IMG/VR virus record: IMGVR_UViG_2529292908_000014
Span: 1 to 17,277 of that record
Reading direction: 5' to 3' (one strand)
DNA from: a virus
Lineage: Duplodnaviria > Heunggongvirae > Uroviricota > Caudoviricetes
DNA: 17,277 nt
The position numbers were made by a program, and so were the translations under genes. The notes under the pieces are model-generated. The model was given only the letters and a program-made list of their open reading frames with translations. It did not search any database and was not told where the DNA came from. Of the stretch, positions 744 through 13,398 are shown in pieces (positions within the stretch are counted from its first letter, which is position 1; each line of letters begins with the position of its first letter).

Positions 744-1563
744 GGTCGGTGGCCACGGCTTTCATGTTATGAATGCCTGTCTGACCACCACCTGCATTAC
801 CGCTGCCCTGCCCGGATAATGTGCGCACGCTGCCGTCCTCGTTCCAGATGTCCAGTGGCACCACGGCTACCTGTTTCTTGCTGTCTGCGCGGCGGGCGTG
901 GCTCTGAGCCAGTACTGTCAGTTCGGAGAAACAGCCGTTAATGGACCTGGTATCGTCCAGCTCCATCACGTTGTTCCCGGTACCGTCCAGCTTCAGAATC
1001 AGCGTGTCCACCGGCGTGGTGGTGTAGTCAGGGCCACCCACAACCAGCGTACCGTCAGGCTCAAACCACGGCCATAAGCCGCGACCGGCGGCAGCTTTAG
1101 CCAGTGCATCCCACGCACGCATCCCCGGCTCTATAACGACCTTGTCATTACGTGACACACCAGACGCCTGAATACGGATGCGCTGTATCCCCAGCGGTCT
1201 GACTATCCTGTCGATGACCTCGTCCAGTGTCAGCTGATTGGCGCTGAACACCGGCGCGGCACAGTCCACCAGAATGGCGGCATCATCACGCCCGGACAGG
1301 GTCAGCGCGCAGCTCTGACGGGATACACTGCGGCGCACGCTGTCCACGCGACCACTAAGGACCGTCTCATCTCCCACCTGCAAACGGACTGGCACACCCC
1401 GGACGATATCCGCCGGGAACACCTTTTCAGGCAGTCCCAGCTGAAGCTGCCACCCGTCGGCTGCTTTCAGGAAATCGCTGTCAATACGATAACTGCTCCA
1501 GTCAGAATGCGATCTTCCGGCAATGACCAGGCTGATTTTGTCGTCGTTATTTTGCATAGGCAT
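739..1563 (-). CDS. Baseplate hub protein, Mu gp44(P)/P2 gpD-like, 3'-truncated (274 codons; intact homologues are ~380 aa in my recollection); stop codon lies inside the IS terminal repeat
   Basis: ATG at 1563 (alternative ATG at 1557). Protein has the character of the tail late-control-D/baseplate-hub family (…LTLSGRDDAAILVDCAAP…). Last codon and TAA (739-741) fall within the IS repeat ending at 743. Position directly after the gp43-like gene. Confidence 0.55.
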   Translation of the reverse strand: MPMQNNDDKISLVIAGRSHSDWSSYRIDSDFLKAADGWQLQLGLPEKVFPADIVRGVPVRLQVGDETVLSGRVDSVRRSVSRQSCALTLSGRDDAAILVDCAAPVFSANQLTLDEVIDRIVRPLGIQRIRIQASGVSRNDKVVIEPGMRAWDALAKAAAGRGLWPWFEPDGTLVVGGPDYTTTPVDTLILKLDGTGNNVMELDDTRSINGCFSELTVLAQSHARRADSKKQVAVVPLDIWNEDGSVRTLSGQGSGNAGGGQTGIHNMKAVATDP

Positions 1564-2896
1564 TAATCACCATCCCGGCGGTTATGTTGTTCGGGTCACG
1601 CAGCTGCGGGTTCAGACGTTGCAGCTCTGCCGCACGGCTGTAATCACCGTACCACTGCCACGCCAGCAACAGCAGGCAACCGTCCGCCTGCACCTGTTTC
1701 TGCGTCAGCGGTGGGCGGCGTGACAGAGTCAGCAGGCCGACATCCTGCACGGATGCCGCCACGTTCTTCATGCTCTGAATGATTTCCGGGTACATCAGCC
1801 CCAGCGGTGATGCGGTTTCGGTTATCCGTTCGCGTTCGCCTTCATAGCGTTCACGGAACAGCGTGATGGCTGCCTGTAAGCGGGTGCGCACATCCCCGAC
1901 CAGTCGCCCGATATCCGCCGGTATAAGCTGCTCTGACTGGGCCTCATCTGACAGTATCGCCGTCGCCACGCTGGCCAGCTCTGAGGCTGCCAGAACCGCA
2001 TAAGCCGCTTTCACGTCGTGCACGTCTTCCACGGACGCATCCGGCGGAAGTGCCACAGACGGCGTTTTATCACCGCTGACCAGTGCGACCGGCAGCGCGA
2101 CCAGCTCATCCATATCTGCCATCACCTCATTCCAGCAGGTCATCACTGTCGCAGAACTGGCGACGTTGTCTTCCCCGGTCAGTCCGGTCGTGGTGGCGGA
2201 ATCACTACGCGCCAGAACCGGCACCGCGTGCCCGACATCTGACGTGTGGATTTCCAGCACCTCTGCCAGCCCGCCGATAAACTTTCCGGGTTCGCTGGTC
2301 AGTGACACAACATTTTCGACTGTGGAGAATGAATCACTTTTGAACGTCAGCAGGGTATTTACCAGCGTGGCACGCACTGCCTGGATTTTTTTAATCACGC
2401 TGTTAATGGTCTTTAAAGGGGGCGTAACAGCGTCAAAAAATTCGCTTAACTGTGCCAGTAACTTATCCAGTTCTTCAAATAACTGCTGTGCAAACAGCTC
2501 TGGTAACGGGGTGCAGAACAACGCACTGCCGGTGCGGCTCTCCAGAAAGCTCATGTCGATGGTGCAGCTGTCCGGGCTTTCTGCGTCATGGCGAATGCTG
2601 TAGCCGGTCACAATCACCGACGGTACGGAGCCGTAAACCGGGTGAATCAGCTCACCATCGCCGCCTTCGTCCAGGGCAGCGATCAGCTTTTCAAGTTTAT
2701 ATTCGTAATACTCCCCCCACAGGAACGCCGTCATGCGGAACGGTCGCGCCTTGCGTCCGAGGTCGTGCAAATCTGCCCCGTCAACAAACGGGTATTCATA
2801 GACCGCATGGTCGCGGCTGATTTGTTCATCCGTGTTCAGTACATCAAACTGCACGCCACGAAAGGAGGCGTTTTGCAGGTTTTCAGCCCAGCCCAT
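1547..2896 (-). CDS. DNA circulation protein, Mu gp43 (N)-like tail protein
   Basis: 449-aa ORF; N-terminus MGWAENLQNASFRGVQFDV...YEYPFVDGADLHDLGRKARPFRMTAFLWGEYYE resembles the DNA_circ_N family as I recall it. ATG at 2894-2896 overlaps the upstream TGA (TGATG coupling). Sits between the tape-measure ORF and the baseplate hub as in Mu. Confidence 0.7.
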   Translation of the reverse strand: MGWAENLQNASFRGVQFDVLNTDEQISRDHAVYEYPFVDGADLHDLGRKARPFRMTAFLWGEYYEYKLEKLIAALDEGGDGELIHPVYGSVPSVIVTGYSIRHDAESPDSCTIDMSFLESRTGSALFCTPLPELFAQQLFEELDKLLAQLSEFFDAVTPPLKTINSVIKKIQAVRATLVNTLLTFKSDSFSTVENVVSLTSEPGKFIGGLAEVLEIHTSDVGHAVPVLARSDSATTTGLTGEDNVASSATVMTCWNEVMADMDELVALPVALVSGDKTPSVALPPDASVEDVHDVKAAYAVLAASELASVATAILSDEAQSEQLIPADIGRLVGDVRTRLQAAITLFRERYEGERERITETASPLGLMYPEIIQSMKNVAASVQDVGLLTLSRRPPLTQKQVQADGCLLLLAWQWYGDYSRAAELQRLNPQLRDPNNITAGMVINAYAK

Positions 2897-5352
2897 CAGT
2901 AAGTTCCTCCCGTGCCTCTGTTACCGTCCTGAAGGTTGTATTTGTTCACTGCTTCCGCCACAATCTGACCATCGAGCACCAGTTGTGTGGTGAAATTAAT
3001 GGGGCTGGCAGGTGGCCCCCAGTGCGTGAGGTATCCCGGCTGGGTGATGCGTCCGGGTTGCGTTGATACTGATTCAGGCGTTGTGTTTCCGGCGGCTTTG
3101 TTGACCTGCGCCGGTGATGGCAGGGCATCAGCTGCGGCTTTTTTCCTGTCTTCCTCCCAGCGCCTCAACCACTCTTCGTTTTCGGTGGAGTAGCCTTCCC
3201 CAAACTGCCACCACGGCTGGTATTTTTTGCGGGCAGCATCGATGATTTCCTGGGGATATCGGGCGCGGATGCGCTTCCAGCGTTCCTCGCTTCCTTCGAC
3301 GGCGGCGTCTTCTTCCGGGCTGGTTGCGGTGGCCAGTGCCGTAACGGTGCCACCGAAAGAAAGCAGGCTACCGGCAATGCCGGGGAATTTAAATCCTTTG
3401 CCTTTTTTGACCGTGTTTTCAATTACATCACCGACAACCTCGCCAGCCTTGCCACCGGTTTTACCCCCGGTCAGGATTTTGATCCCGGCCCATGTCAGAG
3501 CCGCTGCGGTCATCGCTTCAATGGCGGTCGTGGCACCCACCACTGCCGTGGTCAGTCCCGGAAACTTTTCACCCGCCCAGCTTATGGCATCGGCCACAGT
3601 ACCGGACGCATCAGCCAGCTTTTTCATGCTGTCCATTTGTGAAAATTCAAGCGTGTTTTTGGCCTGTTCGGTTTTAAAGTCATTGAGGCCGGATATGAAT
3701 TTAAAATCCACATCACCCGCGCGCTGACCTTCCGGCAGGGTGCGCTGCTGATTAATCGCGTCTTCAACCTTTTTCCGGTATTCAGGGTTGTTACGGTAAG
3801 CCAGCAACGCTTTTAACGCCTGTTGGTCTGCAACCAGTTTCCCGACACCAAAGCCTTCAAGGAGTTTTGCCATCGAATCATAAACAGCTGTCTGCTCGCC
3901 TTTATCCCGGGCGGAGGCCAGTTTCTTTTGCAACTCCTGAAAGCGTTTATCGCTGGCAGCGATTTTGTCTATCAGACTGGACAGCGCATCTATCGGATCA
4001 AGCCCATGTTCGCGCGCCTGAACCAGCGTGCCGGAAAAATCAATTCCTTTACCGTTGTAATCAATGCTCTTTGCCGCTGTTTCAATATCGTGGCTGGTCA
4101 GTTTAGCCAGCAGGTTAAACACGTTATTTCCGGCCTCATCACTGCTTCCCGCCGTGATGGCGGCAGCTTCATTCAGCGCCAGAATCTTGACAAAATCATC
4201 CTTGCCTCTCATCCCCGCAGCTGACGCTGACCCCAGTTGCGAAGATAACCAGCGGGCCATGTCGCTCAGTTCAAAGCTACCTTCTTTGCCCGCTGCAATT
4301 GCCATATTCAGAACGGTGGAAATATCTTCATCCCTGAATCCAAAGGTCTTTTTACCCTTAAGCATCACATTAGCCAGGTCTGTCGCTGATGCACCGGAAG
4401 CCGTGGCGTATTTCATCAGTTCAGGCAGCCACTTACTGGCTGTTTCAAATGAAATACCGCCATCTTTCAGCAGGGCATCCAGCGTTTCGGCGGCGTCTTC
4501 TTTCGTGCCGCCACCCCAGGTCACCGCGTTACGGATGCTGTTTTTCATCTGCTCAAGACCAGCCCTGCGCCCCTCCAGCCCGCTATCACTGAAGGCGGTA
4601 TTGGCCATCATTGCCAGCTGGCGTTCGTAGCTCATCTGCTTTTTGACCGGCTGCGCCATAATGGCAGCACCTGCTGCGATACCAGCGCCTGTTGTCACGG
4701 CATTCCCGCCAAATGCAGCCGCACGGGCAAAACGCCCCGGTTCGGGGATAACCAGGTCAGGACGGTACGGGCCGTGGCGCAGACCACGCAGTTTTTTACC
4801 ACTACCGGCAACGGTCACCTTGATATTGTTGGCCGTGACGATGGTCCCCATACGCCAGACGCGACCCTGCCCGCACACTTCCGGGAAATCGTTTTTTAAA
4901 CGGGGGTTAAACTCCAGTTCAGCCTTGATGGCTTCCAGCATCGGATAAGCCTGGTCGATACTGTCCATAATGATGACCGGGTAATGCTTAATGGCCCGGA
5001 TAATGGTCCACAGGGTAAACAGCTGAGTCACCAGCGTGGATTTTGCTTCACCACGGGGCGCGGCGATGGCGTCGTTCTCCGGGTCCGGGCTTGCCACAAC
5101 CTGTGGCAGACGGCTGAACAGGTATTTATGCAGCTCACTTTTTGCCGGGTTGCGGACGTAGTGCGGGAAATAATTTTCGACAAAATAATCGTAGCCCGTC
5201 ACCGGGTCGCAGACTGCCGCCCGGCGGGCCTGTGTGGCCTGCGGGTTAACATCGAACCCCAGACATTCAGCCTCGATGGTCTGGCGGAGGTTGGCGATGT
5301 ACTCCTGCAGGCTTCTCTGAAACTCTTTAATGGAAAGTTTACGTTTTGCCAC
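2896..5352 (-). CDS. Chimeric ORF: large terminase N-terminal ATPase fragment (about 220 codons, nt 5352->4747) fused in frame to a tail tape-measure protein (about 615 codons, nt 4746->2899); probable deletion product
   Basis: N-terminal part has a deviant Walker A (AAPRGEAKST), Walker-B-like VIIMDSID and the terminase motif LRGLRHGPYRPDLVI, but the expected DDxE and nuclease domain are missing. From PEPGRFARAAAFGG onward the sequence is tape-measure-like (GSFELSDMARWL, Gly/Ala-rich hydrophobic stretch …LTGGKTGGKAGEVVGDVIENT…). The six-frame track gives 2896..5409 from a TTG; GTG at 5350-5352 directly after the methyltransferase stop is the more plausible start. Confidence 0.6.
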   Translation of the reverse strand: MAKRKLSIKEFQRSLQEYIANLRQTIEAECLGFDVNPQATQARRAAVCDPVTGYDYFVENYFPHYVRNPAKSELHKYLFSRLPQVVASPDPENDAIAAPRGEAKSTLVTQLFTLWTIIRAIKHYPVIIMDSIDQAYPMLEAIKAELEFNPRLKNDFPEVCGQGRVWRMGTIVTANNIKVTVAGSGKKLRGLRHGPYRPDLVIPEPGRFARAAAFGGNAVTTGAGIAAGAAIMAQPVKKQMSYERQLAMMANTAFSDSGLEGRRAGLEQMKNSIRNAVTWGGGTKEDAAETLDALLKDGGISFETASKWLPELMKYATASGASATDLANVMLKGKKTFGFRDEDISTVLNMAIAAGKEGSFELSDMARWLSSQLGSASAAGMRGKDDFVKILALNEAAAITAGSSDEAGNNVFNLLAKLTSHDIETAAKSIDYNGKGIDFSGTLVQAREHGLDPIDALSSLIDKIAASDKRFQELQKKLASARDKGEQTAVYDSMAKLLEGFGVGKLVADQQALKALLAYRNNPEYRKKVEDAINQQRTLPEGQRAGDVDFKFISGLNDFKTEQAKNTLEFSQMDSMKKLADASGTVADAISWAGEKFPGLTTAVVGATTAIEAMTAAALTWAGIKILTGGKTGGKAGEVVGDVIENTVKKGKGFKFPGIAGSLLSFGGTVTALATATSPEEDAAVEGSEERWKRIRARYPQEIIDAARKKYQPWWQFGEGYSTENEEWLRRWEEDRKKAAADALPSPAQVNKAAGNTTPESVSTQPGRITQPGYLTHWGPPASPINFTTQLVLDGQIVAEAVNKYNLQDGNRGTGGTY

Positions 5353-5353
5353 G

Positions 5354-6094
5354 TCACACCTGCACTGCTTCTGTCTGGGCTTTTTCGATACGTGCGCAGG
5401 CGATATCAAAATACTGGTTAGTCATTTCAATGCCGGTAAACCGTCCGCCACGGGCAAGTACAGGGATGGCGGTAGTGCCGCTTCCCATAAACGGATCAAG
5501 GACGTGCGCATCCGGTGTCAGCGGTTTAACCAGCTCAGCCATCAGCTGAACCGGCTTTGCGGTCATGTGCAGTTTTTCGGACGGGACGACACGCTGCGTA
5601 ATCACACCCGGGAACGGGCCACCGTGCGGGCATTTGTCGAGTTTTCCGTTGCTGCCCCAGACCACATACTCGGCCTGATGCCGAAAATAGCCAGTGTGTG
5701 GCGCACGGGAAGCCTGCGTTTTATCCCAGACAACCAGACCACGCCACAGCACACCACCGGCCTGAAATGCATCTGTAAGCGCCGGTAGTTGTCGCCAGTC
5801 ACTGAACACCATGAAATAACCGCCGGAATTCAGCCTGTGCAATGCATGAGATATCCACATGGAACACCAGAACGCCCAGCTGCGCTGGTCGCGGTTATCG
5901 CCGGTGAACTCGGCATACTGGGTGTGACCGATATACTTGTCCGAAGGGGCCATGCTGCGGTCTGATTTGTGTGTACCACCACTGCTGTAAGGCGGGTCGG
6001 TAATGACGGCATCAAAACGTTCGGATAACGCCGGCAGCACATCAAGAACATCACCGCAATACAACGTTGCGTTACCAATAATCTGTTTTTGCAT
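5354..6094 (-). CDS. DNA methyltransferase, beta-class amino-methyltransferase (N6-adenine or N4-cytosine), no restriction partner in the window
   Basis: 246-aa ORF from ATG at 6094. Motif IV DPPY near the N-terminus (…DAVITDPPYSSGG…) and motif I FxGxG near the C-terminus (…LDPFMGSGTTAIPV…), the permuted order typical of this class. Confidence 0.85.
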   Translation of the reverse strand: MQKQIIGNATLYCGDVLDVLPALSERFDAVITDPPYSSGGTHKSDRSMAPSDKYIGHTQYAEFTGDNRDQRSWAFWCSMWISHALHRLNSGGYFMVFSDWRQLPALTDAFQAGGVLWRGLVVWDKTQASRAPHTGYFRHQAEYVVWGSNGKLDKCPHGGPFPGVITQRVVPSEKLHMTAKPVQLMAELVKPLTPDAHVLDPFMGSGTTAIPVLARGGRFTGIEMTNQYFDIACARIEKAQTEAVQV

Positions 6095-6140
6095 TACAAA
6101 TCCCGAATATCAGACGACCCGGAAAACCGGGCCGCTGTGG

Positions 6141-6641
6141 TTAACTGAAATTATCCTCAAGCTCTTTAGCGAAGCCTTCGAGCACCTCAAGAAACGGGGC
6201 ATACTGCGTCGGGTGACGCTCCTTGATGAACGCGCCGAGCCGCTGCACCACTTCCAGTGCCGTGGCGAGCCGGTCGGTTTCCGGCAGGATTTTTTTACTG
6301 CTGGCCACCGCCTTACTGAGACTGTCGGACAGACTCGCCAGCAGTTCGACGGACTCCTGCGGCGGGATGTCCGGGTTCTGGTTCAGCCGTTCAAGCGTCG
6401 TCTGACACTTCACCACCAGACTGATAAGCACGGTGCGGGCGACACTTTCCAGCCCGTCACCGGCGAGCGCGTGCGCGGCCCGCAGCTTGTCCCAGTCGTC
6501 GCCGTTCTTCATCGCCTGCGTTTTCCAGCGCCGCGCGGTGTCGTGCGGCACGGCGTACTTCATGGCGACGATATCCAGCGGAAGCTGGTCAAAGATGTAC
6601 CCGTTACGGACTTTGTCCCTGATATCCTGTGACCACGCCAT
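6141..6641 (-). CDS. Putative small terminase / DNA-binding packaging protein (Mu gp27-like)
   Basis: 166-aa ORF, ATG at 6641 overlapping the upstream TAA (TAATG). Predicted helix-rich N-terminus (…IRDKVRNGYIFDQLPLDIVAMKYAVPHDTARRWKTQA…). Located just upstream of the terminase-like ORF. Functional call rests on position and recall. Confidence 0.45.
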   Translation of the reverse strand: MAWSQDIRDKVRNGYIFDQLPLDIVAMKYAVPHDTARRWKTQAMKNGDDWDKLRAAHALAGDGLESVARTVLISLVVKCQTTLERLNQNPDIPPQESVELLASLSDSLSKAVASSKKILPETDRLATALEVVQRLGAFIKERHPTQYAPFLEVLEGFAKELEDNFS

Positions 6642-6847
6642 TAAGTGTCCTTCTGAGCCTGTTCAATCCTGCGCTGAACTTCGTCGGGATTTTCAAGAAC
6701 AAATACGTTTTTCCCGGTATCCAGTTCAATGACCGTGCCATCATGTGTACCGTACTGACGGTAAAAATGGGTGATTCGTTCAGCGAGCACCATGACAGCG
6801 CCAGCACCTCCTGAACCTGTGTATTCTGTAAATCTGATAATGCTCAC
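6641..6847 (-). CDS. Small hypothetical protein (68 codons from GTG at 6847; 50 codons from ATG at 6793)
   Basis: Open frame between the lipoprotein ORF and the gp27-like gene; stop overlaps the next start; no recognisable motif. Confidence 0.3.
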   Translation of the reverse strand: MSIIRFTEYTGSGGAGAVMVLAERITHFYRQYGTHDGTVIELDTGKNVFVLENPDEVQRRIEQAQKDT

Positions 6848-6867
6848 TGTGTCAGACCTTCAAAAAA

Positions 6868-7050
6868 TCAGTTCTGCGAACACTGCCGGATACCGTCAAT
6901 AATCCGGCAGACCTGCGCCGCCGCGTCAAACAGCTGGCCCGCTCTGTTAATGTCTGAGCATCCCACCGGAAGCAACATCATCAGAAACAGGGCCAGAACA
7001 CAGCGCGCGGCTTTACGTGGCGTTCTGTGGGGCCAGCGACTTCTGTTCAT
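6868..7050 (-). CDS. Small putative lipoprotein (possible o-spanin-like lysis accessory protein)
   Basis: 60-aa ORF, ATG at 7050, 13 nt after the endolysin stop. Basic N-region, hydrophobic core LALFLMMLLPV, then Cys (…LPVGC…), resembling a lipoprotein signal; short Cys-containing mature part. No transmembrane i-spanin partner found. Confidence 0.35.
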   Translation of the reverse strand: MNRSRWPHRTPRKAARCVLALFLMMLLPVGCSDINRAGQLFDAAAQVCRIIDGIRQCSQN

Positions 7051-7063
7051 AACCCGTCCCGCA

Positions 7064-7441
7064 TCAGCGTTTTAACTGGAAATGAGGCCCGTCTTTCAGC
7101 GTTTTCCAGTCTCCGCCCCATTCGATGGCGACACCCAGCTCTGCGGCAGCCTGTTTAAAGGCACGGGCGATTTTTTCGTATAACGGCCAGTCCCATGAAA
7201 TAGTGCTACCAACGTAAGCCACGACATCAACGGCATCGCCAGTAAGGTGACGGCTGTTCATGGTCTGGCTCTTGCCTTCAGCGACAAGTTGTTTCTGACG
7301 TTCTTTCGTGCGTAAACCTTCGGTAATACCAAAATCGACGTCCGACAACGCCAGCGCACGGCGTACAACTGCCACCAGTTGTGGCTTTACGTCAGCCAGA
7401 TTTTTCTCGCTACGTTGACTGAAACGGAATTTTCCCGACAT
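7064..7441 (-). CDS. Endolysin, zinc metallopeptidase M15 family (L-alanyl-D-glutamate peptidase-like)
   Basis: ATG at 7439-7441 preceded by GGAGGTG; 126 codons. Zn-ligand pattern H-x3-D (…SRHLTGDAVDV…) and a distal His (…DGPHFQL…). No signal peptide, so holin-dependent. The six-frame ORF extends to 7684, but the internal ATG with a Shine-Dalgarno sequence fits the gene boundary. Confidence 0.8.
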   Translation of the reverse strand: MSGKFRFSQRSEKNLADVKPQLVAVVRRALALSDVDFGITEGLRTKERQKQLVAEGKSQTMNSRHLTGDAVDVVAYVGSTISWDWPLYEKIARAFKQAAAELGVAIEWGGDWKTLKDGPHFQLKR

Positions 7442-7443
7442 AT

Positions 7444-7722
7444 TCACCTCCGCAATAACGAAAGGATTTTTGACAAATTCCCGTGCGCCCACACGATAAG
7501 CGCACAGAAAACCAGATTCAGCGCCACAACCAGCCAGCTGGATTGCGTGTATGTACCGGACAGCCAGCGGAACGGGATGATGACGTAGCCGAGCATCAGC
7601 CAGTACGCCAGCCAGGTAATCATCGGTTTGTGCGCCGCACCGTGGCGGCGATACACAAACAACCCCAGAACAATGGTGAGACACAGCCAGACGTTCACGA
7701 TACCGGCAAGGCTACTTTCCAT
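7444..7722 (-). CDS. Small membrane protein, three predicted transmembrane segments (holin or antiholin candidate)
   Basis: ATG at 7720-7722 preceded by GGAGGGGG; about 92 codons; hydrophobic segments SLAGIVNVWLCLTIVLGLFVY, MITWLAYWLMLGYVIIPF, WLVVALNLVFCALIVWA; ends 2 nt before the endolysin start. Confidence 0.5.
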   Translation of the reverse strand: MESSLAGIVNVWLCLTIVLGLFVYRRHGAAHKPMITWLAYWLMLGYVIIPFRWLSGTYTQSSWLVVALNLVFCALIVWAHGNLSKILSLLRR

Positions 7723-8104
7723 TTCCACCCCCTCCGCCGCGCAGTCTGGAAAACAGGCCGAACAGCGATGAAATTTCCTGTTGATAAAGAAAGGTCAGTA
7801 TCTTGATGGATAACGCCGAGACACCGACCGCACACAATGCATCGAGCGGCTTGTCGTTGTAGTGGGTCAGCCACTGCATCAGTGACGCAGCCACGCCAGC
7901 CCCCAGAACGCCAACCACAAATGCGACGAGCAGGTGGATGGCCATTCGCCAGACCGGGATTTCTTTCTGCTGCGTGACAACAAAAAGCGCCCCGGCAAAC
8001 GCGCCCACCACAACCCCGAAATCGGTATTGGTGAGAAGACCAAACACACTGGCACCACCAATGGTGACTGCCACAGCTCCACCGCCTGATAAGGGTTCAG
8101 ACAT
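7712..8104 (-). CDS. Membrane protein with 3-4 predicted transmembrane segments (putative holin)
   Basis: ATG at 8102-8104 preceded by AGGAGAAA; 130 codons; Gly/Ala-rich hydrophobic helices (…AVAVTIGGASVFGLL…, …FGVVVGAFAGALFVV…, …AIHLLVAFVVGVLGAGVAASLM…); first gene of the lysis cassette. Confidence 0.5.
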   Translation of the reverse strand: MSEPLSGGGAVAVTIGGASVFGLLTNTDFGVVVGAFAGALFVVTQQKEIPVWRMAIHLLVAFVVGVLGAGVAASLMQWLTHYNDKPLDALCAVGVSALSIKILTFLYQQEISSLFGLFSRLRGGGGGNGK

Positions 8105-8286
8105 GAGTTTCTCCTGTAAATCTGAGCCACTGACGGCCCGTAAATAACACCCTGTCAAAGGCACAGAAGCCTTTTGCAGGGCGCTATCCCTTAAGGTGCC
8201 TTGTGGTCTGAGTGGACAGGGTAAACGGTCTGGTGTGGTGGGTACTGCTGAGGGAGTTCAGCACCCCGCGGCGGCGGGGTGATAAA

Positions 8287-8565
8287 TCAGAAGCGGGAAA
8301 GAGAATCCGGCGTAATAAGAGGTTTATTACAAAGCGGAGCAGAGGCGTTCGCCTTTTCCATCGCTGCACGCATCTCGTTTTCGCTGGCGATGATGTCAGC
8401 AATGGCACACTGCAACGCTTCTTCCTGAACAACCATATCCGGTTGTTCGGCCATTCGGTTTAGCTGGCTGGCCAGATTTTTCATATAAGCGAAGCGGCGT
8501 CCGGCAGCATCCCGGGCCTGCTCTGAGTAGGCTGTATACTCGCCAAGTGCCGTATAGTTGGTCAT
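8287..8565 (-). CDS. Hypothetical protein (92 aa) in the position where Mu has the late activator C
   Basis: ATG at 8563-8565 with a strong Shine-Dalgarno sequence (AAAAAGGAGACACTT-ATG); no Mor/C-like motif. Confidence 0.4.
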   Translation of the reverse strand: MTNYTALGEYTAYSEQARDAAGRRFAYMKNLASQLNRMAEQPDMVVQEEALQCAIADIIASENEMRAAMEKANASAPLCNKPLITPDSLSRF

Positions 8566-8591
8566 AAGTGTCTCCTTTTTTCTGAGGCCCA

Positions 8592-9059
8592 TTAATCAAA
8601 AAGCCCCACCTGGGTGGGGCTTTTCAGCGAAGTCTGTTTTTGTCGTCGGTGTATCAGCTGCCATGCGTACCGGTCTGAAATCCCGTAACGGGGACAAAGC
8701 AGTGCCAGCGCCTGCCGGTGTGAAAATCCGTCTCTGATATGCTGCTGTAAATCAGCCATAAAACGGGCGTTACGCAGAGCACGTAACGCATGATCGCAAC
8801 GGGGAATGTAAAACGGAGCACCGCCAAGAAAGCGGATCAGTTTGTTGATTTCGTCTTCGGTCAGCACGTCATGTAACAGGGCATGGACACCGCCAGTACG
8901 TTCGGCGTGTGCGCCGGTTTTACCGCTTAACGTCACGCCACCAAAAGAACGAATCAACCGGGTCATGGCGGGGAAGCCAATCACGCTAATCAGTTGCTGC
9001 ACGGAATCGGGCAGCAGTGCCTGCGCATCGCGAAGATCTGTTTCACTGAAGGTCTGCAT
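8592..9059 (-). CDS. mor: Mor/C-family transcription activator (middle-operon regulator-like)
   Basis: 155-aa ORF, ATG at 9059 with GGAGA upstream. C-terminal region …LIRFLGGAPFYIPRCDHALRALRNARFMADLQQ…YGISDRYAWQLIHRR matches the Mor/C signature as I recall it (LGG..VYIPR … YG.S…VY.I). Lies immediately after gemA as mor does in Mu; being C instead cannot be excluded. Confidence 0.65.
   Translation of the reverse strand: MQTFSETDLRDAQALLPDSVQQLISVIGFPAMTRLIRSFGGVTLSGKTGAHAERTGGVHALLHDVLTEDEINKLIRFLGGAPFYIPRCDHALRALRNARFMADLQQHIRDGFSHRQALALLCPRYGISDRYAWQLIHRRQKQTSLKSPTQVGLFD
8596..8621 (-). terminator. Hairpin plus short T-tract overlapping the last codons of the mor-like gene (candidate intrinsic terminator, minus strand)
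   Basis: Minus-strand AGCCCCAC-CCAG-GTGGGGCT followed by TTTTGATTAA; 8-bp GC-rich stem, short U-tract. Confidence 0.4.
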
Positions 9060-9121
9060 GATGGCGTCTCCGGTAGTAACTTACTGTTATTATAGCCATA
9101 CATGATCGCCTGTACAGACCA

Positions 9122-9148
9122 CAAAAAAGCCCCTGCAAGGCAGGGGCT
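9122..9148 (-). terminator. Rho-independent terminator-like hairpin between gemA and the mor-like gene (minus strand)
   Basis: Minus-strand AGCCCCTGC-CTT-GCAGGGGCT followed by TTTTTTGT; 9-bp GC-rich stem, 6-T tract; starts 6 nt after the gemA stop. Confidence 0.55.
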
Positions 9149-9154
9149 GATTCT

Positions 9155-9568
9155 TTATTGTTTACGTGCTGCTCTGACTCGTTTTCTGGCGTCTTTTGTC
9201 AGCGCCACCATCACCCCGAAAAGCTGTTCATCCGTCAGCCATTCGATCACATGTTGCTTATACATGTGAGATGCCAGTCCTTCCGCATACACCCAGGAAC
9301 GACCGGCATCAGCCAGTAACGCTTCAATTTTGGATAATACCGATTTTCTGCTCATTGCAACACGAGGGCGGCGACCTTTACCAGCGGGGGCCTTGCGCGG
9401 AAATCCCTGTTCGTGCATGTATTCCCGGATGATGCGCAGTTCATCGAGATTGCAGCGTGTGGTGCTGGTTTTACCTGTCAGGCGGATCAGTGTCTGGCGA
9501 TAAAGAGCATCATCCCACCCCAGATATGCCTGACCGGCTTTAATGGCCCCGATCATCTTTTTCTGCAT
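9155..9568 (-). CDS. gemA: GemA-like regulatory protein (Mu gp16 family)
   Basis: ATG at 9566-9568 preceded by GAGGA; N-terminus MQKKMIGAIKAGQAYLGWDDALYRQTLIRLTGKTSTTRCNLDELRIIREYMHEQGF resembles GemA/DUF1018 proteins as I recall them. The six-frame ORF extends to 9667, but the internal ATG with RBS fits better. Confidence 0.7.
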   Translation of the reverse strand: MQKKMIGAIKAGQAYLGWDDALYRQTLIRLTGKTSTTRCNLDELRIIREYMHEQGFPRKAPAGKGRRPRVAMSRKSVLSKIEALLADAGRSWVYAEGLASHMYKQHVIEWLTDEQLFGVMVALTKDARKRVRAARKQ

Positions 9569-9854
9569 GTTTGTTATCCTCAAAACGCACGGTAAAACGT
9601 GAAACACCAATCCCCAACAGGAACGCGGCGGCACGGTCAAGAGACAGCCACGTCTTGTAATCGCCACGGCGTTCCTGTAGAAAACAGGACACCCCGGCGC
9701 GGCGATTCACAGCGAAGAGGTGATACACACCCCCGAACCGCTGCACGACGAACTCATCCACGCCACCGCTTTCAGCCTGTTGCCTGAAAGCTGCCATTCC
9801 GATTTGTTCAATCTTCATAATGACCAAAACATCATTTTTGGCAGACCAAAACAT
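9540..9854 (-). CDS. Hypothetical early protein (up to 104 aa; start uncertain among 9854, 9818, 9797)
   Basis: Open frame overlapping the gemA start by 29 nt; no convincing Shine-Dalgarno sequence for any start; the longest start lies inside the 28-bp palindrome. Confidence 0.35.
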   Translation of the reverse strand: MFWSAKNDVLVIMKIEQIGMAAFRQQAESGGVDEFVVQRFGGVYHLFAVNRRAGVSCFLQERRGDYKTWLSLDRAAAFLLGIGVSRFTVRFEDNKHAEKDDRGH

Positions 9855-9868
9855 ATGTTTTGGTCTGC
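9841..9868. promoter_or_regulatory. 28-bp perfect palindrome GCAGACCAAAACATATGTTTTGGTCTGC, with a third direct half-site copy at 9822-9832; candidate operator
   Basis: Read directly and checked base by base for self-complementarity; half-site GACCAAAACAT present three times; sits in the 215-bp intergenic gap 9855-10071. Confidence 0.5.
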
Positions 9869-10071
9869 TGTTGGTTATTATTTAATTACTTTGCGTTAGT
9901 GTGATTCTTCCAGCGATTTTGGGCTGCGCTGGGCTTGTTAAGGGAACACATCACAATATCAGCTGTGTTTGTGAACAAACCCATTCTGCGGTTACTGAGT
10001 TTTAGCCATTGCTGGACGCCGCGAGCGTTTCTACAGGTCAAAAGAATTTTTGCTTTACGTTTTTCATCTGA

Positions 10072-10380
10072 TTATTCCCCTGAAATCAGTCCTGAACGGA
10101 TTACTGTTTTTGCAATATGCGCCCGTAATTGCTGCGTTCCGTGGTATTTGATTGCCACATCGCGTAATTTATTAACCAGCTCCCTGAGCTGATACTCTTT
10201 TGCTCCCGGTGTCACCGGAATGATTCCTGCTCTCCGGTATTCCTGAAGCTCCAGCAGGGACTGCCGTAAGAGCGTCCACCACTCTCTGTCTACAATCGGC
10301 CCGCGCATATCAAGCATTTTGTCAGCATCGGCAATCAGTCTGGTCAGGCTCTTATCGCTTATTCTGGTTTGCTGGTTCAC
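10072..10380 (-). CDS. Hypothetical early protein (102 aa)
   Basis: GTG at 10378-10380 overlaps the upstream TGA (GTGA coupling); first ATG at 10317; no recognised motif. Confidence 0.4.
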   Translation of the reverse strand: MNQQTRISDKSLTRLIADADKMLDMRGPIVDREWWTLLRQSLLELQEYRRAGIIPVTPGAKEYQLRELVNKLRDVAIKYHGTQQLRAHIAKTVIRSGLISGE

Positions 10381-10667
10381 TGCGCCGCCTCCTGCTCATT
10401 TTTTTCACTCCGGTATACCAAAATCACGATATCTCCCTGGGTAATTACGCGTGCCGGATCTCCCTGCTGCATACGGTCAATATCAAAAGCGTCATTAAAC
10501 GCATTTAGCGCCTTCACGCGCTTGTCTTTGCGGCGACGTTTTTCACATTGCTTAAAGAACGAAGAAATCAACCACCTGAATGACATAAAAATGATATAGC
10601 CATAACCGATAAGCGCCAGACCTGTATTCATGGCTACATCTATCGTTATCGTTTTATCAATGACCAT
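10377..10667 (-). CDS. Small membrane protein (96 aa, one N-terminal transmembrane helix, basic cytoplasmic segment)
   Basis: ATG at 10667 preceded by AGGAGG; hydrophobic stretch NTGLALIGYGYIIFMSF followed by KQCEKRRRKDKR. Confidence 0.45.
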   Translation of the reverse strand: MVIDKTITIDVAMNTGLALIGYGYIIFMSFRWLISSFFKQCEKRRRKDKRVKALNAFNDAFDIDRMQQGDPARVITQGDIVILVYRSEKNEQEAAQ

Positions 10668-10887
10668 TGCCAGCCTCCTGTTTTGCCACCTTAAACGCCC
10701 GTAACATCGGAACCGTTTTACCGGTGATGACTGTTCTCATTAAAAGACCGCCACCGCTCTCATGGCGCACTTCAGGAGCAACAAACAGCGCCGCATCCAC
10801 AACCCGGCGATAGCGGCGGAACTCCCAGAACCAGCAGGTAACAATGATTTTTGCGGTGACTCCGTAGTCATAAAATTCAATATTCAT
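10657..10887 (-). CDS. Hypothetical early protein (76 aa)
   Basis: ATG at 10885-10887 overlapping the upstream TGA (ATGA coupling). Confidence 0.4.
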   Translation of the reverse strand: MNIEFYDYGVTAKIIVTCWFWEFRRYRRVVDAALFVAPEVRHESGGGLLMRTVITGKTVPMLRAFKVAKQEAGNGH

Positions 10888-11111
10888 TTGCAGTTAAACC
10901 TTCTTTTGTGACGTTCTACAGCAGCTTTCATGGCGTTGTGCACGGTTCTTTTAATAATCCGGCGTCCCGCACTGTCATAGAACCGCCACCGGGAAGCCCC
11001 CGGATATTCAGGGAACTCAACCGCCGCGCTACCGTCATTCATCCTGTATTCGTGGCGTTCTCCGGGCGGCTGGTATATTGCTTCGGTAACACTGAGAAGT
11101 TTAAAAGCCAT
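10884..11111 (-). CDS. Hypothetical early protein (75 aa)
   Basis: ATG at 11111 preceded by GGGGAGGGTG. Confidence 0.45.
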   Translation of the reverse strand: MAFKLLSVTEAIYQPPGERHEYRMNDGSAAVEFPEYPGASRWRFYDSAGRRIIKRTVHNAMKAAVERHKRRFNCK

Positions 11112-11823
11112 CGTTACACCCTCCCCAGTGCCAGCGTTTTGTTGCTCTGACCATTAACCCCCTGATGCAGTCTGGCGTTTTTCCCGGCGATAAAACCGGC
11201 TGTAGCGGCAGACTCTGCACCCCGGCACGCTTTAGCGGTGCGCATATCCCCGTCGCGCAGTCCCTTGGTGCTGTGCAGGTTCTTTCTGTAAAGCTCAAGG
11301 CGGCTTTTTCTTCCGGGGAGACGTCATACACCGCAATGACATCACGGGCACCAAAGACCCAGCCTTCGCAGAACTGGTCGCCACGGGCCACCCGCGTGGA
11401 CGGGCCGCAACGTTTGCAGTGTTTATCCTGATATTTCTTGCGCTCTGCCATCATCTGACGGGAAAGCACATCAAACGCGTAGGCCGCGATTTCCGGGCGG
11501 CTGTCAGGACCATAAAAACGAACGTAACGCTTGAGTGAACCAGAAGCCCGGTATTCGCCGGAGATGTAACACTCGACACCGAAGGCTTTACAGACCAGGT
11601 CACACAGGATGTGCATATAACGCGGCGGTGTACTGGCATCACTCGGCGCACCCGCGCTGGCAGCGTCCTGAATGTCGAACAATTCCGCGTCGTTTTCGCT
11701 GATACCATGCTGGCGCATATAAGCCTGGGCTTTTGCAATAGCGTTAGCGGCTTCTTCCGGGCTTGATGTCCCTCTTGCAAGGCGTAACAGCTTTTTAATT
11801 TTGGCGATGTATTTATTTTTCAT
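11101..11823 (-). CDS. DUF2786-like protein with Cys-rich C-terminal region
   Basis: N-terminus MKNKYIAKIKKLLRLARGTSSPEEAANAIAKAQAYMRQHGISENDAEL matches the DUF2786 pattern as I recall it; several Cys pairs downstream (…CDLVC…, …CKRCGPS…FCEGW…); ATG at 11823. Confidence 0.6.
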   Translation of the reverse strand: MKNKYIAKIKKLLRLARGTSSPEEAANAIAKAQAYMRQHGISENDAELFDIQDAASAGAPSDASTPPRYMHILCDLVCKAFGVECYISGEYRASGSLKRYVRFYGPDSRPEIAAYAFDVLSRQMMAERKKYQDKHCKRCGPSTRVARGDQFCEGWVFGARDVIAVYDVSPEEKAALSFTERTCTAPRDCATGICAPLKRAGVQSLPLQPVLSPGKTPDCIRGLMVRATKRWHWGGCNDGF

Positions 11824-12040
11824 GGTCGTCTGAACCTCAGCATCCTGAATTCTGAATTACGCAACTTCCGGCACGGCCTTCAGGAACATGGGGAGTTCGT
11901 TCTGGCTGCGGTACTGAATGAGCATCTGCTGTCGATTGAGAACTGGTCGCAAGACGATTAAAACAAACGATTGTCAGATTAATTTCGCGGGCGAACTTTT
12001 TTTGCTTTGCGATATTCATAAATAAACTCTCTCTGACTCA

Positions 12041-12078
12041 GGCGTAAGCCAGCCCCGGCGGGTTTACGCCTGTTTTAA
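12041..12078 (+). terminator. Plus-strand hairpin plus T-tract (intrinsic terminator-like) in the opposite orientation to all surrounding genes
   Basis: GGCGTAA…(16 nt, partly self-pairing)…TTACGCC followed by TGTTTTAAAT; the minus-strand reading has no U-tract. Confidence 0.35.
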
Positions 12079-12101
12079 ATAACAATTAAAAACAAATTAA
12101 A

Positions 12102-12293
12102 TTAATGCGGTGCTTTCAGTGTTTCGATTTTAACGAAATAAGGCTCGACATTAATTTCAACCACACAACCACATTTAAAATCTCTGGCAGGTGAAACGGT
12201 TTTCACCACACGACCACCACGCAACGCCGGATGTGCAGTGTGCATGAAGCGAGTCCCTACCGGATACTGCTTATTAAAGTTCTTCGCATTCAT
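12102..12293 (-). CDS. Hypothetical early protein (63 aa)
   Basis: ATG at 12291-12293; overlaps the 3' end of the preceding ORF by 20 nt; no motif recognised. Confidence 0.35.
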   Translation of the reverse strand: MNAKNFNKQYPVGTRFMHTAHPALRGGRVVKTVSPARDFKCGCVVEINVEPYFVKIETLKAPH

Positions 12294-12507
12294 GGCGTGG
12301 CCTCCAGCCCTTCAGGTGAGCGTTAGCGCAGAACTCCGCACGATGTTCAGCCCAGATGCGGCGCAGGGTGCTACACGGGCTTTGCGCTGCCTTGCGCCAC
12401 AGTTTTTCTGCCTCATCATAATCGCCGCGTTGTTCTGCTCTGGATGCACCCAGCGAATACGCCGCGCAACGATTTCCGGCTCTGTACTCTTTGATATCCT
12501 GATGCAT
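12274..12507 (-). CDS. Small protein, possibly ANR-family-like regulator (77 aa)
   Basis: ATG at 12505-12507, 1 nt after the upstream TAA; pattern …AEQRGDYDEAEKLWRKAA…WAEHRAEFC… resembles small ANR-type proteins as I recall them (low certainty). Confidence 0.35.
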   Translation of the reverse strand: MHQDIKEYRAGNRCAAYSLGASRAEQRGDYDEAEKLWRKAAQSPCSTLRRIWAEHRAEFCANAHLKGWRPRHECEEL

Positions 12508-12508
12508 G

Positions 12509-13153
12509 TTAAACCCCTGCAATATCAAGCGGGATTGCGCGGTATTCATCAGAATCACCAACGCGCTCATACACACGAATATAGCTCTTGCTGCCAATCA
12601 CCTGGACGGCTTCACCAATCAGCATCATGGCGTTATTCCAGCGTTCGTCCTCAATTTCGAGGCGACGCAGGGCCAGAACGCGCCCTGTGTTAATGTTGCC
12701 TTCCTTGTCCGTGCTGAATGCCTCGCTAATGATGGCTTTAATTTCAGGGCGCGCACCTTCCGTCCAGTCAGCCAGGCAATCATCAATCAGCGACTTCGCG
12801 GTCTGAATGCGTTCATCAAACGCGATACGGTCCTGCATGGCGCGCTGAATCTTGTATCGCCCGTCAAAGCTGTAAAGCGTGATATTGCCTTTTTTGCCGC
12901 CTTTCACAGCGCCGTATTTCTCCGCCGACAGGTCAATAAATGCCTGGATATCACCAAACGCACGCAGTTTCAGTTCCCGCAGTGAGGCGGAGGCAGCAAT
13001 CACCATCTCCACAAGCTCACCGACCAGCTGCTCGCGGTCGCGGTCAATATCTTTGATAAGGCTTTCAGGTGTCATTACGCCACGGGCATCCACCCAGTAA
13101 CCTTCAGGCGCTTGAGTTTTCGTGTATTGCTTAACTTTATTTTCAGTCGTCAT
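12509..13153 (-). CDS. Mu-like early-region protein (214 aa), possibly DUF3164 family; does not resemble Mu Gam as I recall it
   Basis: ATG at 13151-13153 preceded by GAGGT; long clean ORF; family assignment from memory only. Confidence 0.5.
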   Translation of the reverse strand: MTTENKVKQYTKTQAPEGYWVDARGVMTPESLIKDIDRDREQLVGELVEMVIAASASLRELKLRAFGDIQAFIDLSAEKYGAVKGGKKGNITLYSFDGRYKIQRAMQDRIAFDERIQTAKSLIDDCLADWTEGARPEIKAIISEAFSTDKEGNINTGRVLALRRLEIEDERWNNAMMLIGEAVQVIGSKSYIRVYERVGDSDEYRAIPLDIAGV

Positions 13154-13182
13154 AATTAAATTACCTCAGTGATATTTACAGA

Positions 13183-13398
13183 TTAATGTGTGTTATGTGC
13201 GCGAGGCGCAACGTTTTCAGAAAAAAGATTCACGCCGTTATAGTCATTTCTAAGCGTTTCCTTGATAACATTATGTAATCCTGTTGCCACCTGAAGCTCC
13301 CTTTTGGAAGTGCCATCCTTCGAATAACTCCCTGTAATCCGGGTAAGAGTCGCGCCTTTTTCATTGGTATAGATAATTACTTCTAATTTAACCGCCAT
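13183..13398 (-). CDS. Hypothetical early protein (71 aa)
   Basis: ATG at 13396-13398 preceded by GAGAGGAAA; begins 13 nt after the upstream TGA. Confidence 0.5.
   Translation of the reverse strand: MAVKLEVIIYTNEKGATLTRITGSYSKDGTSKRELQVATGLHNVIKETLRNDYNGVNLFSENVAPRAHNTH

What the first reader, a model, noticed from the sequence alone, without database searches (positions are those of the whole stretch)
5354..6094. Orphan DNA methyltransferase wedged between the small- and large-terminase homologues
A beta-class amino-methyltransferase (DPPY before FMGSGTT) lies with almost no intergenic space between the gp27-like gene and the terminase-like ORF (1 nt from its stop to the downstream GTG). 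I recall no methyltransferase at this position in Mu, so it behaves like an inserted moron co-transcribed with late genes. No restriction endonuclease partner is present. The likely role is self-protective methylation against host restriction, replacing or supplementing Mom-type modification. Target specificity is unknown.
Basis: partly seen in the sequence, partly recalled or inferred. Interest (0 to 1): 0.45.

Follow-up and report, generated by a model that had tools for sequence, protein, structure and literature searches.

The report
Orphan phage methyltransferase in defective prophage
The gene is a real, intact DNA adenine methyltransferase carried as optional cargo in the late operon of a Mu-like E. 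coli prophage, an ordinary and already annotated kind of phage anti-restriction gene, here sitting in a prophage that can no longer make virus particles.

Summary
On the minus strand, 5354-6094 encodes an intact 246-aa beta-class amino-methyltransferase, with DPPY at residues 33-36 and FMGSGTT at 202-208 (Pfam PF01555, E 1.7e-24). Its stop lies 1 nt before a GTG start.

- **Optional cassette:** near-identical E. coli prophages, and one in Trabulsiella, join the same DUF1804 gene directly to terL. The gene is present in 36 of 5,426 complete E. coli genomes. In a survey of 80 species, 2 of the 78 loci with both flanking genes carried it in this slot.
- **No restriction partner:** none was found.
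- **Upstream gene:** it is not homologous to Mu gp27.
- **Downstream ORF:** it is not a terminase. It is an in-frame fusion of TerL residues 1-200 to the C-terminal part of the tape-measure protein, made by an 11.4-kb deletion.
- **Right end:** IS421 cuts it off. This copy is therefore a defective relic with no virion DNA to protect.

Homologues sit in other phage slots, often behind a Com-like translational regulator as Mu mom does. This supports a late-expressed anti-restriction role. The target sequence is unknown. This is an ordinary member of a known kind and of low interest.

The parts
5354..6094 (-). Orphan beta-class (DPPY) DNA amino-methyltransferase, 246 aa, intact
   Evidence: PF01555 E 1.7e-24. 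AlphaFold model pLDDT 83.6. Foldseek best matches are M.BceJIV, CcrM and M1.HpyAVI (E about 1e-15). Identical to RefSeq WP_001171799.1.
6095..6140 (-). 46-nt spacer between the DUF1804 stop and the MTase ATG. It holds a hairpin (about 6111-6137) and a weak GGGA Shine-Dalgarno sequence. In MTase-free relatives the same hairpin precedes terL.
   Evidence: Fold -24 kcal/mol, z -2.5. The hairpin is conserved in the empty sites of E. coli OkiPb01701 and Trabulsiella, so it is not specific to the MTase.
6141..6641 (-). DUF1804 protein, the DNA-binding/putative small-terminase partner of D3112-type transposable phages. It is not a Mu gp27 homologue.
   Evidence: PF08822 E 2.4e-52; phrog_756; BLASTP against Mu gp27 E 0.47.
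4753..5352 (-). TerL-derived 5' part of the fusion ORF (codons 1-200). Its GTG start lies 1 nt after the MTase stop.
   Evidence: 100% identical to the 5' end of terL in NZ_CP086627.1.
4742..4752 (.). Deletion junction with microhomology: both the TMP side and the TerL side of the intact prophage match here
   Evidence: About 11,390 bp of the intact prophage (L001 8622-20011) are missing.
2896..4752 (-). Part of the fusion ORF derived from the tape-measure protein (about residues 140-757 of the intact protein)
   Evidence: PF10145 E 9.8e-20; 99.9% identical to the tape-measure gene of intact prophages.
6641..8164 (-). Upstream genes on the same strand in the late/lysis region: two small ORFs, an M15 endolysin and two holins. 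Together with DUF1804, the MTase and terL they form one apparent transcription unit.
   Evidence: No sigma-70-like promoter was found on the minus strand between 5354 and 9088.
8592..9059 (-). Mor/C-family transcription activator, the presumed activator of the late operon
   Evidence: PF08765 E 1.2e-6. A strong terminator and a promoter-like site lie just upstream at 9089-9148.

Best explanation
The gene encodes a solitary beta-class, AdoMet-dependent DNA methyltransferase, most likely making N6-methyladenine. It belongs to a large family spread among temperate phages.

In this lineage of Mu-like (DUF1804/D3112-type) enterobacterial prophages it is an optional single-ORF cassette. It is inserted exactly between the ribosome-binding region and the start codon of terL.

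In an intact phage it would be transcribed with the Mor/C-dependent late (lysis-packaging) operon. It would act, presumably as a homodimer, on replicated phage DNA just before headful packaging. Progeny DNA would then enter the next host already methylated and resistant to some restriction systems. terL would be translated by coupling to the MTase stop (TGAcGTG).

In this particular window the prophage is dead: an 11.4-kb deletion fuses TerL to the tape-measure protein, and IS421 removes the right end. The MTase here is therefore a still-intact passenger of a recently decayed element. It is probably silent and protects nothing.

Shown: identity, fold, intactness, cassette boundaries, presence/absence polymorphism and the defective context. 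Inferred: late expression, adenine target, anti-restriction role and dimer state.
For: **Identity and fold**
- Motif order and Pfam, PADLOC and PHROG matches.
- The AlphaFold model (pLDDT 83.6) matches solved beta-class N6A MTases M.BceJIV, CcrM and M1.HpyAVI at E about 1e-15.
- The family-invariant residues are all present.

**Cassette**
- E. coli OkiPb01701 carries a roughly 95% identical prophage with DUF1804 52 bp from terL. Trabulsiella has a 48-bp gap.
- Alignment shows the same hairpin in filled and empty sites. The sequence CAGGTGTGAC-GTG upstream of terL also supplies the last codons and stop of the MTase.
- The MTase gene is in 36 of 5,426 complete E. coli genomes, while 56 match the wider query (4600-7000) that includes its flanks.
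- Among 78 species-level loci with DUF1804 and TerL, only 2 carry it in the slot. The gap ranges from -10 to 1,856 bp and holds other cargo: a C5-MTase fragment, HicAB, Rha and DUF6527.

**Stable in the lineage**
- The same arrangement occurs in Yersinia (80% identity), Intestinirhabdus, Buttiauxella and Limnobaculum (67%).

**Anti-restriction role by analogy**
- Homologues of 50-61% identity lie in a Salmonella Mu-like lysis cassette, at a Serratia Mu-like right end (the mom position), before the terminase genes of a lambdoid E. coli prophage, and in P2-like prophages.
- In the P2-like prophages a Com zinc-ribbon ORF (PF10122) precedes or overlaps the start of the gene. This held for 26 of 80 IMG/VR loci.
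- Mu-like prophages lacking mom are known to carry protective m6A MTases (PMC3299994).
- Beta-class MTases work as dimers (PMC7544214).

**Defective context**.
Against: - No experimental or methylome data exist for this protein or any close homologue in the literature searched.
- The target sequence, and even the target base, are inferred from motif IV only. Solved N4-cytosine MTases match the model almost as well.
- Late co-transcription rests mainly on the absence of consensus signals in a crude scan, whose promoter count was not above shuffles.
- In this window the phage cannot be packaged, so the proposed benefit cannot apply to this copy.
- MTase-free sister prophages exist, so the gene is dispensable.
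Confidence: 0.72

Rival explanations
1. It is a domesticated epigenetic regulator. The methyltransferase is expressed in the lysogen and methylates the host chromosome, changing host gene expression. That would explain why it survives intact in a dead prophage.
For: The ORF is intact although the surrounding prophage has lost 11.4 kb and its right end. Orphan MTases such as CcrM and M.BceJIV, its closest structural matches, are regulators.
Against: The gene is 100% identical at the nucleotide level to copies in intact prophages, so the decay is recent and intactness needs no selection. No promoter-like site lies upstream; it sits mid-operon behind a hairpin. It is present in only 0.7% of complete E. 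coli genomes and always inside this prophage type. Related prophage MTases such as M.EcoGII are silent in lysogens (PMC5778455).
Confidence: 0.08
2. It is a packaging-linked methylase. The enzyme marks the phage packaging site or otherwise regulates terminase, as P1 pac cleavage depends on adenine methylation. That would explain its position next to, and translational coupling with, terL.
For: The gene lies between the two presumed terminase subunits, 1 nt from the terL start. The family sits in the DUF1804-TerL slot in at least two TerL lineages (L130 and L132, TerL only 34-35% identical) and just upstream of the HNH-TerS-TerL genes in a lambdoid prophage.
Against: Near-identical prophages lack the gene and keep the same terminase genes. 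Homologues also sit in lysis cassettes, at prophage ends and behind com. The slot holds unrelated cargo in other phages. The P1 analogy rests on my own knowledge and was not tested.
Confidence: 0.06
3. It is an N4-cytosine rather than an N6-adenine methyltransferase.
For: Pfam PF01555 covers both activities. Solved N4C enzymes (rotifer N4CMT, M.PvuII) match the model at E 1e-13 to 1e-11.
Against: Motif IV is DPPY, invariant in the family. DPPY is the adenine-binding motif of N6A enzymes (PMC7544214). N4C enzymes usually have SPPY or SPPF (my own knowledge). The best sequence and fold matches are N6A enzymes, and JGI annotations call family members adenine-specific.
Confidence: 0.08
4. It is the remnant of a restriction-modification system whose endonuclease gene was lost or lies elsewhere.
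For: The best PADLOC model is a 'Type II methyltransferase' cluster.
Against: No endonuclease-like gene occurs next to it in the window. None occurs in the intact E. coli prophage or in the Yersinia, Limnobaculum, Salmonella, Serratia, Delftia or lambdoid contexts. The cassette boundaries enclose one ORF only.
Confidence: 0.03

Closest known systems
M1.HpyAVI (Helicobacter pylori HP0050; PDB 5HFJ/5HEK)
   Same: It is a small beta-class N6-adenine MTase (232 aa against 246 aa) and the best sequence match in the PDB (E 5.6e-14, full length). Foldseek gives E 7e-15. Both have a long flexible loop right after DPPY (residues 37-63 are predicted disordered here) and a very short TRD. In M1.HpyAVI this architecture goes with promiscuous 4-bp specificity and a dimeric state (PMC5173035).
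   Different: Identity is only about 22%. M1.HpyAVI belongs to a chromosomal Type II R-M system with a second MTase and a putative endonuclease. The window gene is solitary and phage-borne, and its target is unknown.
Hia5 / Hin1523 / Nme1821, non-specific m6A MTases of Mu-like prophages (Drozdz et al. 2012, PMC3299994)
   Same: They are orphan adenine MTases carried by Mu-like prophages that lack mom. They have been shown to protect DNA from many restriction enzymes.
   Different: Those enzymes are Dam-related with DPPY near residue 194, the opposite motif order, and they sit at the mom position at the right end. The window gene is beta-class (DPPY at residue 33) and sits in the packaging module.
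Mu com-mom operon
   Same: It is a late-expressed, phage-encoded DNA modification that defeats restriction. Homologues of the window MTase in P2-like prophages are preceded by a Com zinc-ribbon gene (PF10122), just as mom is.
   Different: Mom is not a methyltransferase and is unrelated in sequence. The window copy has no com gene and is not at the right end.
M.EcoGII, prophage-encoded non-specific beta-class adenine MTase of E. coli O104:H4 (PMC5778455)
   Same: It is beta-class, prophage-borne and solitary, silent in the lysogen and presumed to switch on at induction.
   Different: Non-specificity of the window enzyme is untested.
Bordetella phage BPP-1 Bpm and the MTase of Escherichia phage Chuche (P2-like)
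   Same: These are the closest homologues in isolated phages, at 51.7% and 53.2% identity over about 94% of the length.
   Different: They are in different phage types and genome positions. Neither has a published specificity that I could find.

Membership tests
Beta-class amino (N6A/N4C) DNA methyltransferases (Pfam PF01555) | Motif IV (D/S-P-P-Y/F) lies N-terminal to motif I (FxGxG) | tested here: met
   DPPY at residues 33-36 and FMGSG at 202-206.
Beta-class amino (N6A/N4C) DNA methyltransferases (Pfam PF01555) | Profile score above the curated cut-off | tested here: met
   87.5 bits against 26.7.
Beta-class amino (N6A/N4C) DNA methyltransferases (Pfam PF01555) | Fold of solved beta-class enzymes | tested here: met
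   Model pLDDT 83.6, pTM 0.84. Foldseek TM 0.66-0.72 to 8urk, 6pbd and 5hfj, E about 1e-15.
Beta-class amino (N6A/N4C) DNA methyltransferases (Pfam PF01555) | AdoMet-dependent methyl transfer to adenine N6; homodimer | not testable with these tools
   Inferred from DPPY and from PMC7544214.
Orphan (solitary) phage methyltransferase | No cognate endonuclease gene adjacent; located inside a phage genome | tested here: met
   All neighbours are Mu-type phage genes. There were no PADLOC hits for nine neighbouring ORFs. The same holds in seven other genomic contexts.
Moron (Hendrix sense: extra gene absent from close relatives, with its own promoter and terminator) | Presence/absence polymorphism at a fixed site between otherwise syntenic phages | tested here: met
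   Empty sites in E. coli OkiPb01701 and in Trabulsiella, with ORF-precise boundaries.
Moron (Hendrix sense: extra gene absent from close relatives, with its own promoter and terminator) | Autonomous promoter and terminator flanking the gene | tested here: not met
   The scan found no sigma-70-like promoter on the minus strand near the gene. Its stop lies 1 nt from the terL start, so no terminator fits. It is an in-operon cassette, not an autonomous moron. The scan is crude.
Mu Mom-type modification module | Homology to Mom; right-end position; com gene upstream | tested here: not met
   The protein is a PF01555 MTase. It sits in the packaging region, and no Com-like ORF is in the 46-nt spacer. 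Com is present only with P2-like homologues.
Hia5-type non-specific MTases of Mu-like prophages | Dam-related (alpha-class) motif order with DPPY near residue 190 | tested here: not met
   The motif order is opposite (against PMC3299994).
NCBIfam equivalogs CcrM (NF050803), YhdJ-type PRK11524 and subfamily PRK13699 | Score above the curated cut-off | tested here: not met
   51.6 against 830, 41.3 against 292 and 76.7 against 244 bits.
   BLASTP E 0.47 and 0.037. Mu gp27 is PF11985, whereas the window protein is PF08822. The module is of the D3112/RcapMu type.

The most novel reading that the evidence does not exclude
This minimal beta-class family has a disordered 27-residue loop after DPPY and a TRD of only about 20 residues, an architecture like promiscuous M1.HpyAVI. 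It might be a relaxed or very short-site adenine methyltransferase. That would make it a beta-class functional equivalent of Mom and Hia5 that temperate phages of many types (Mu-like, P2-like, lambdoid, actinophages) plug into late operons or place under Com control for broad anti-restriction cover.
Probability: 0.2. Interest if true: 0.4.

Novelty: new member of a known kind. Interest (0 to 1): 0.15.

Why it matters
It matters little beyond bookkeeping. Phage-borne orphan methyltransferases are common and well understood in principle, and this one is already annotated in RefSeq.

Three things were gained:
- A clean natural filled-site/empty-site pair shows how a single ORF is spliced into a phage late operon by taking over the ribosome-binding region of the next gene.
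- The DUF1804-terL junction of transposable phages turns out to be a cargo hot spot.
- Annotation is corrected: the neighbouring 'terminase' is a deletion fusion and the prophage is defective.

If the enzyme proved to have relaxed specificity, it could be a compact (246 aa) tool enzyme like M.EcoGII or Hia5.

Tried and rejected
- **Phage collection:** megablast of the region found nothing, so no isolated phage of this lineage is held there.
- **Literature:** searches for a characterised close homologue found nothing usable (BPP-1 bpm; E2348/69 methylome; the RefSeq accession; Com plus P2-like).
- **Equivalog assignment:** NCBIfam matches for CcrM, YhdJ and PRK13699 were all far below cut-off.
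- **Own promoter or terminator:** the scan gave no promoter near the gene, and the promoter count was not above shuffles.
- **Spacer hairpin as an MTase-specific regulator:** rejected because the same hairpin precedes terL in empty sites, and the spacer is only 9 nt in Limnobaculum.
- **Compositional sign of recent transfer:** none. MTase GC is 54.9% against 53.2% for the prophage.
- **M.EcoGII as a relative:** considered, but it is 349 aa and could not be compared directly.
- **Hia5 family as a relative:** rejected because of the opposite motif order.
- **Mom or com gene in MTase-free relatives:** none is annotated at the right end of either the MTase-free or the MTase-bearing prophage.
- **Frame check:** my first estimate of the deletion size (11,391 bp) came from a gapped megablast end. 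Ungapped blastn gives 11,390 bp, and the fusion is in frame because TerL codon 200 joins tape-measure codon 140.

Full report
**1. Observation**

The reported coordinates hold a single ORF on the minus strand, 5354..6094, with an ATG start and 246 codons. DPPY is at residues 33-36 and DPFMGSGTT at residues 200-208, which is the beta-class order.
- Pfam N6_N4_Mtase scores 87.5 bits (cut-off 26.7, E 1.7e-24).
- A PADLOC Type II methyltransferase model matches end to end at 2.4e-65.
- PHROG 67 'DNA methyltransferase' matches at 1.4e-53.
- 7,508 database proteins match at E<=1e-10.

The stop codon (5356-5354) is 1 nt from a GTG (5352-5350), as reported. The upstream spacer is 46 nt, not 'almost none'.

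In a 40-member alignment, 61 invariant columns, including TDPPYSSG and DPFMGS, are all present in the window protein. The nucleotide sequence is 100% identical to a RefSeq gene annotated 'DNA-methyltransferase', WP_001171799.1.

**2.

The whole minus strand of the window is a Mu-like transposable prophage. In order it carries:
- a MuA-type transposase (14934-17000)
- a MuB-type ATPase (14022-14915)
- DUF3164, DUF2786 and GemA genes
- a Mor/C-family activator (8592-9059)
- holins and an M15 endolysin
- DUF1804 (6141-6641)
- the methyltransferase
- a DNA-circularisation protein and a gp44-type baseplate hub

Three corrections follow.

(a) The DUF1804 protein is not a Mu gp27 homologue. BLASTP gives E 0.47, Mu gp27 belongs to PF11985, and the intact TerL is not detectably similar to Mu gp28. 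The packaging module is the type found in D3112, DMS3, RcapMu and Mannheimia 3927AP2.

(b) The downstream 818-codon ORF (2896-5352) is not a terminase. Compared with an intact prophage in E. coli RIVM_C036569 (L001), the window matches terL only from 4742 upward and the tape-measure gene up to 4752. About 11,390 bp are missing between them.
- The junction lies in an imperfect microhomology, TCG(G/A)GGATAAC.
- TerL codon 200 joins tape-measure codon 140 in frame.
- The deletion removes the TerL C-terminal part, portal, Mu F, protease, major head, sheath, tube and the rest.

(c) Window positions 1 to about 754 are IS421, which truncates the baseplate hub gene and everything to its right.

No complete E. 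coli genome in the collection carries this exact deleted form. The prophage in the window is therefore defective.

**3. The gene is an optional cassette**

The relevant comparison, though, is with DUF1804-type phages.

I fetched 80 species-representative loci encoding DUF1804 and located TerL and the MTase in each.
- 78 loci have TerL just downstream.
- The DUF1804-TerL gap runs from -10 to 1,856 bp: 19 loci have 60 bp or less and 22 have 480 bp or more.
- Only two loci (Intestinirhabdus, Buttiauxella) hold this MTase in the slot.
- Other occupants include a C5-cytosine methylase fragment (Neisseria flavescens, PF00145 1.6e-54), a HicA/HicB pair, a Rha-family protein, DUF6527 and D3112 orf25-like reverse-strand genes.

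Two close relatives have an empty site:
- Trabulsiella (DUF1804 77% and TerL 81% identical) has a 48-bp gap.
- E. coli OkiPb01701 carries a roughly 95% identical prophage with DUF1804 52 bp from terL.

Alignment shows the DUF1804 stop, the same GC-rich hairpin and then CAGGTGTGAC-GTG(terL) in the empty site. In the filled site the hairpin is followed by GGGATTTGTA-ATG, the MTase ORF, and then the same CAGGTGTGAC-GTG. The last two codons and the stop of the MTase are therefore supplied by the old terL ribosome-binding region. Consistent with this, the listed slot-resident homologues from E. coli, Yersinia and Serratia also end in '...QV'.

In complete E. coli genomes, 36 of 5,426 carry the gene, all full length. 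A wider query (4600-7000) that includes its flanks matched 56 genomes.

The arrangement is also stable. It recurs in Yersinia (80% identity), Limnobaculum (67%) and several IMG/VR contigs, and in two loci whose TerL is only 34-35% identical. GC content is unremarkable.

However, the gene has no promoter or terminator of its own that the scan could find, so it is an in-operon cassette rather than an autonomous moron.

**4. What the family does elsewhere**

Homologues at 50-61% identity occupy other phage positions:
- between the holin and the lysozyme in Salmonella Mu-like prophages
- at the right end of a Serratia Mu-like prophage, next to host genes, where Mu keeps mom
- upstream of HNH-TerS-TerL in a lambdoid E. 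coli prophage
- at the end of P2-like prophages

In the P2-like cases a small zinc-ribbon ORF precedes or overlaps the MTase start. It matches Pfam Zn_ribbon_Com at 1.1e-11 and 4.6e-19. Of 80 IMG/VR loci, 26 show this Com-MTase arrangement. Com is the translational activator of mom in Mu (my own knowledge; the Pfam family name says the same).

The closest homologues in isolated phages are the Chuche MTase (53%) and Bordetella BPP-1 Bpm (52%).

Published work shows that Mu-like prophages without mom carry adenine methyltransferases that protect DNA from many restriction enzymes. Those enzymes are Dam-related, with the opposite motif order (PMC3299994). Prophage M.EcoGII is silent in lysogens and presumed to act on induction (PMC5778455).

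Neither the MTase-bearing nor the MTase-free E. coli prophage has an annotated mom or com gene. Within this lineage, then, the gene is an accessory rather than a swap for mom.

**5. Mechanism**

The AlphaFold model (pLDDT 83.6, pTM 0.84) has disordered segments at 37-63 and 129-134. It matches M.BceJIV, CcrM and M1.HpyAVI at about 1e-15, and N4-cytosine enzymes slightly less well.

The segment between the presumed motif VIII (…QAEYVVWGS) and motif X (…HMTAKPV) is only about 20 residues. The post-DPPY loop is long and is the most variable part of the family alignment. This resembles M1.HpyAVI, where a short disordered TRD and a flexible post-DPPY loop accompany promiscuous 4-bp recognition and a dimeric state (PMC5173035). 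Beta-class enzymes are thought to need dimerisation (PMC7544214).

My best account has four steps:
- late, Mor/C-dependent co-transcription with the lysis and packaging genes
- a dimeric enzyme that methylates adenines in replicated phage DNA before headful packaging
- terL translated by coupling to the MTase stop
- protection of progeny DNA in the next host

All four steps are inferred. In this window none of this can benefit the element, because it cannot be packaged.

**6. Rivals**

The rivals are a domesticated host regulator, a packaging-linked methylase, an N4-cytosine enzyme and a decayed R-M system. Each is weakened by specific results listed in the rival section. None exceeds about 0.08.

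**7. Novelty and verdict**

The kind is known, the gene is annotated, and the idea of Mu-like prophages carrying protective methyltransferases is published. The enzyme itself is uncharacterised and its target is unknown. I rate it a new member of a known kind, with interest 0.15. The most novel reading still open is that this compact family has relaxed specificity (probability about 0.2).

Noticed in passing
window 2896-5352 (minus strand), junction 4742-4752: The 818-codon ORF is an in-frame fusion of TerL residues 1-200 to tape-measure residues 140-757. It was created by an ~11.39-kb deletion at an imperfect 11-bp microhomology. The deletion removes portal, head, sheath and tube genes. No complete E. 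coli genome in the collection has this deletion.
   Followed up: yes
window 1 to about 754-760, and 739-1563: An IS421 (IS4-family) copy, 99.3-99.6% identical to copies in more than 2,200 E. coli genomes, truncates the gp44-type baseplate hub gene (274 of 403 codons remain). It replaces the whole right end of the prophage.
   Followed up: partly
window 761-17277; L001 1-34100: GATC is about four- to five-fold depleted in the prophage: 14 observed against 64 expected in the window, and 34 against 140 in the intact relative, by a second-order Markov estimate. It is by far the most avoided 4-bp palindrome. GATC avoidance is known in enterobacterial phages (my own knowledge). No link to this MTase was established.
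   Followed up: partly
L002 5778-5984; L009 3802-4098; 26 of loci L101-L180: In P2-like prophages the homologous MTase is preceded or overlapped by a Com-type zinc-ribbon ORF (PF10122). This is a com-MTase module that mirrors com-mom of Mu. I found no paper describing it.
   Followed up: partly
L015-L098, the gap between DUF1804 and terL: The DUF1804-terL junction of transposable phages is a cargo hot spot, with gaps from -10 to 1,856 bp. Cargo includes an apparently split C5-cytosine methylase (L075, Neisseria flavescens), HicA/HicB (L076), a Rha-family protein (L084), DUF6527 (L015, L037), and several unannotated reverse-strand ORFs of 160-200 aa with CxxC pairs (D3112 orf25-like).
   Followed up: partly
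L006-L008 (Salmonella enterica) 4001-4753: A 61%-identical MTase sits between the holin and the lysozyme of a Salmonella Mu-like prophage. Its start overlaps the holin stop and its stop overlaps the lysozyme start. The same family has therefore been spliced into a different late-operon junction.
   Followed up: no
window 6111-6137 (minus strand): A conserved GC-rich hairpin (-24 kcal/mol for the 81-nt context, z -2.5) lies just after the DUF1804 stop. It is retained in filled and empty sites in E. coli, Yersinia and Trabulsiella. It has no T-tail and its role is unknown (RNA stability or attenuation?).
   Followed up: partly
window 9089-9148 (minus strand): A strong intrinsic-terminator-like hairpin (9 bp, 7 GC, T-run) is followed at once by the best sigma-70-like site in the region (TGTACA-16-TATAAT), just upstream of the Mor/C-family gene. 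It looks like the early/middle transcription boundary.
   Followed up: no
window MTase residues about 74-95 (about 5810-5875): Most of the 9% difference from the E. coli cluster representative P0001 is packed into one patch: WAFWCSMWISHALHRLNSGGYF against WAYWSTPWMSGAARLVRPGGYV. The patch is in the long helix after the disordered loop, which suggests mosaic recombination within the gene.
   Followed up: no
window 9885-10673 compared with L001: The early region between GemA and DUF2786 is replaced relative to the intact E. coli relative, and only short matching blocks remain. This is the usual mosaicism of small early genes.
   Followed up: no
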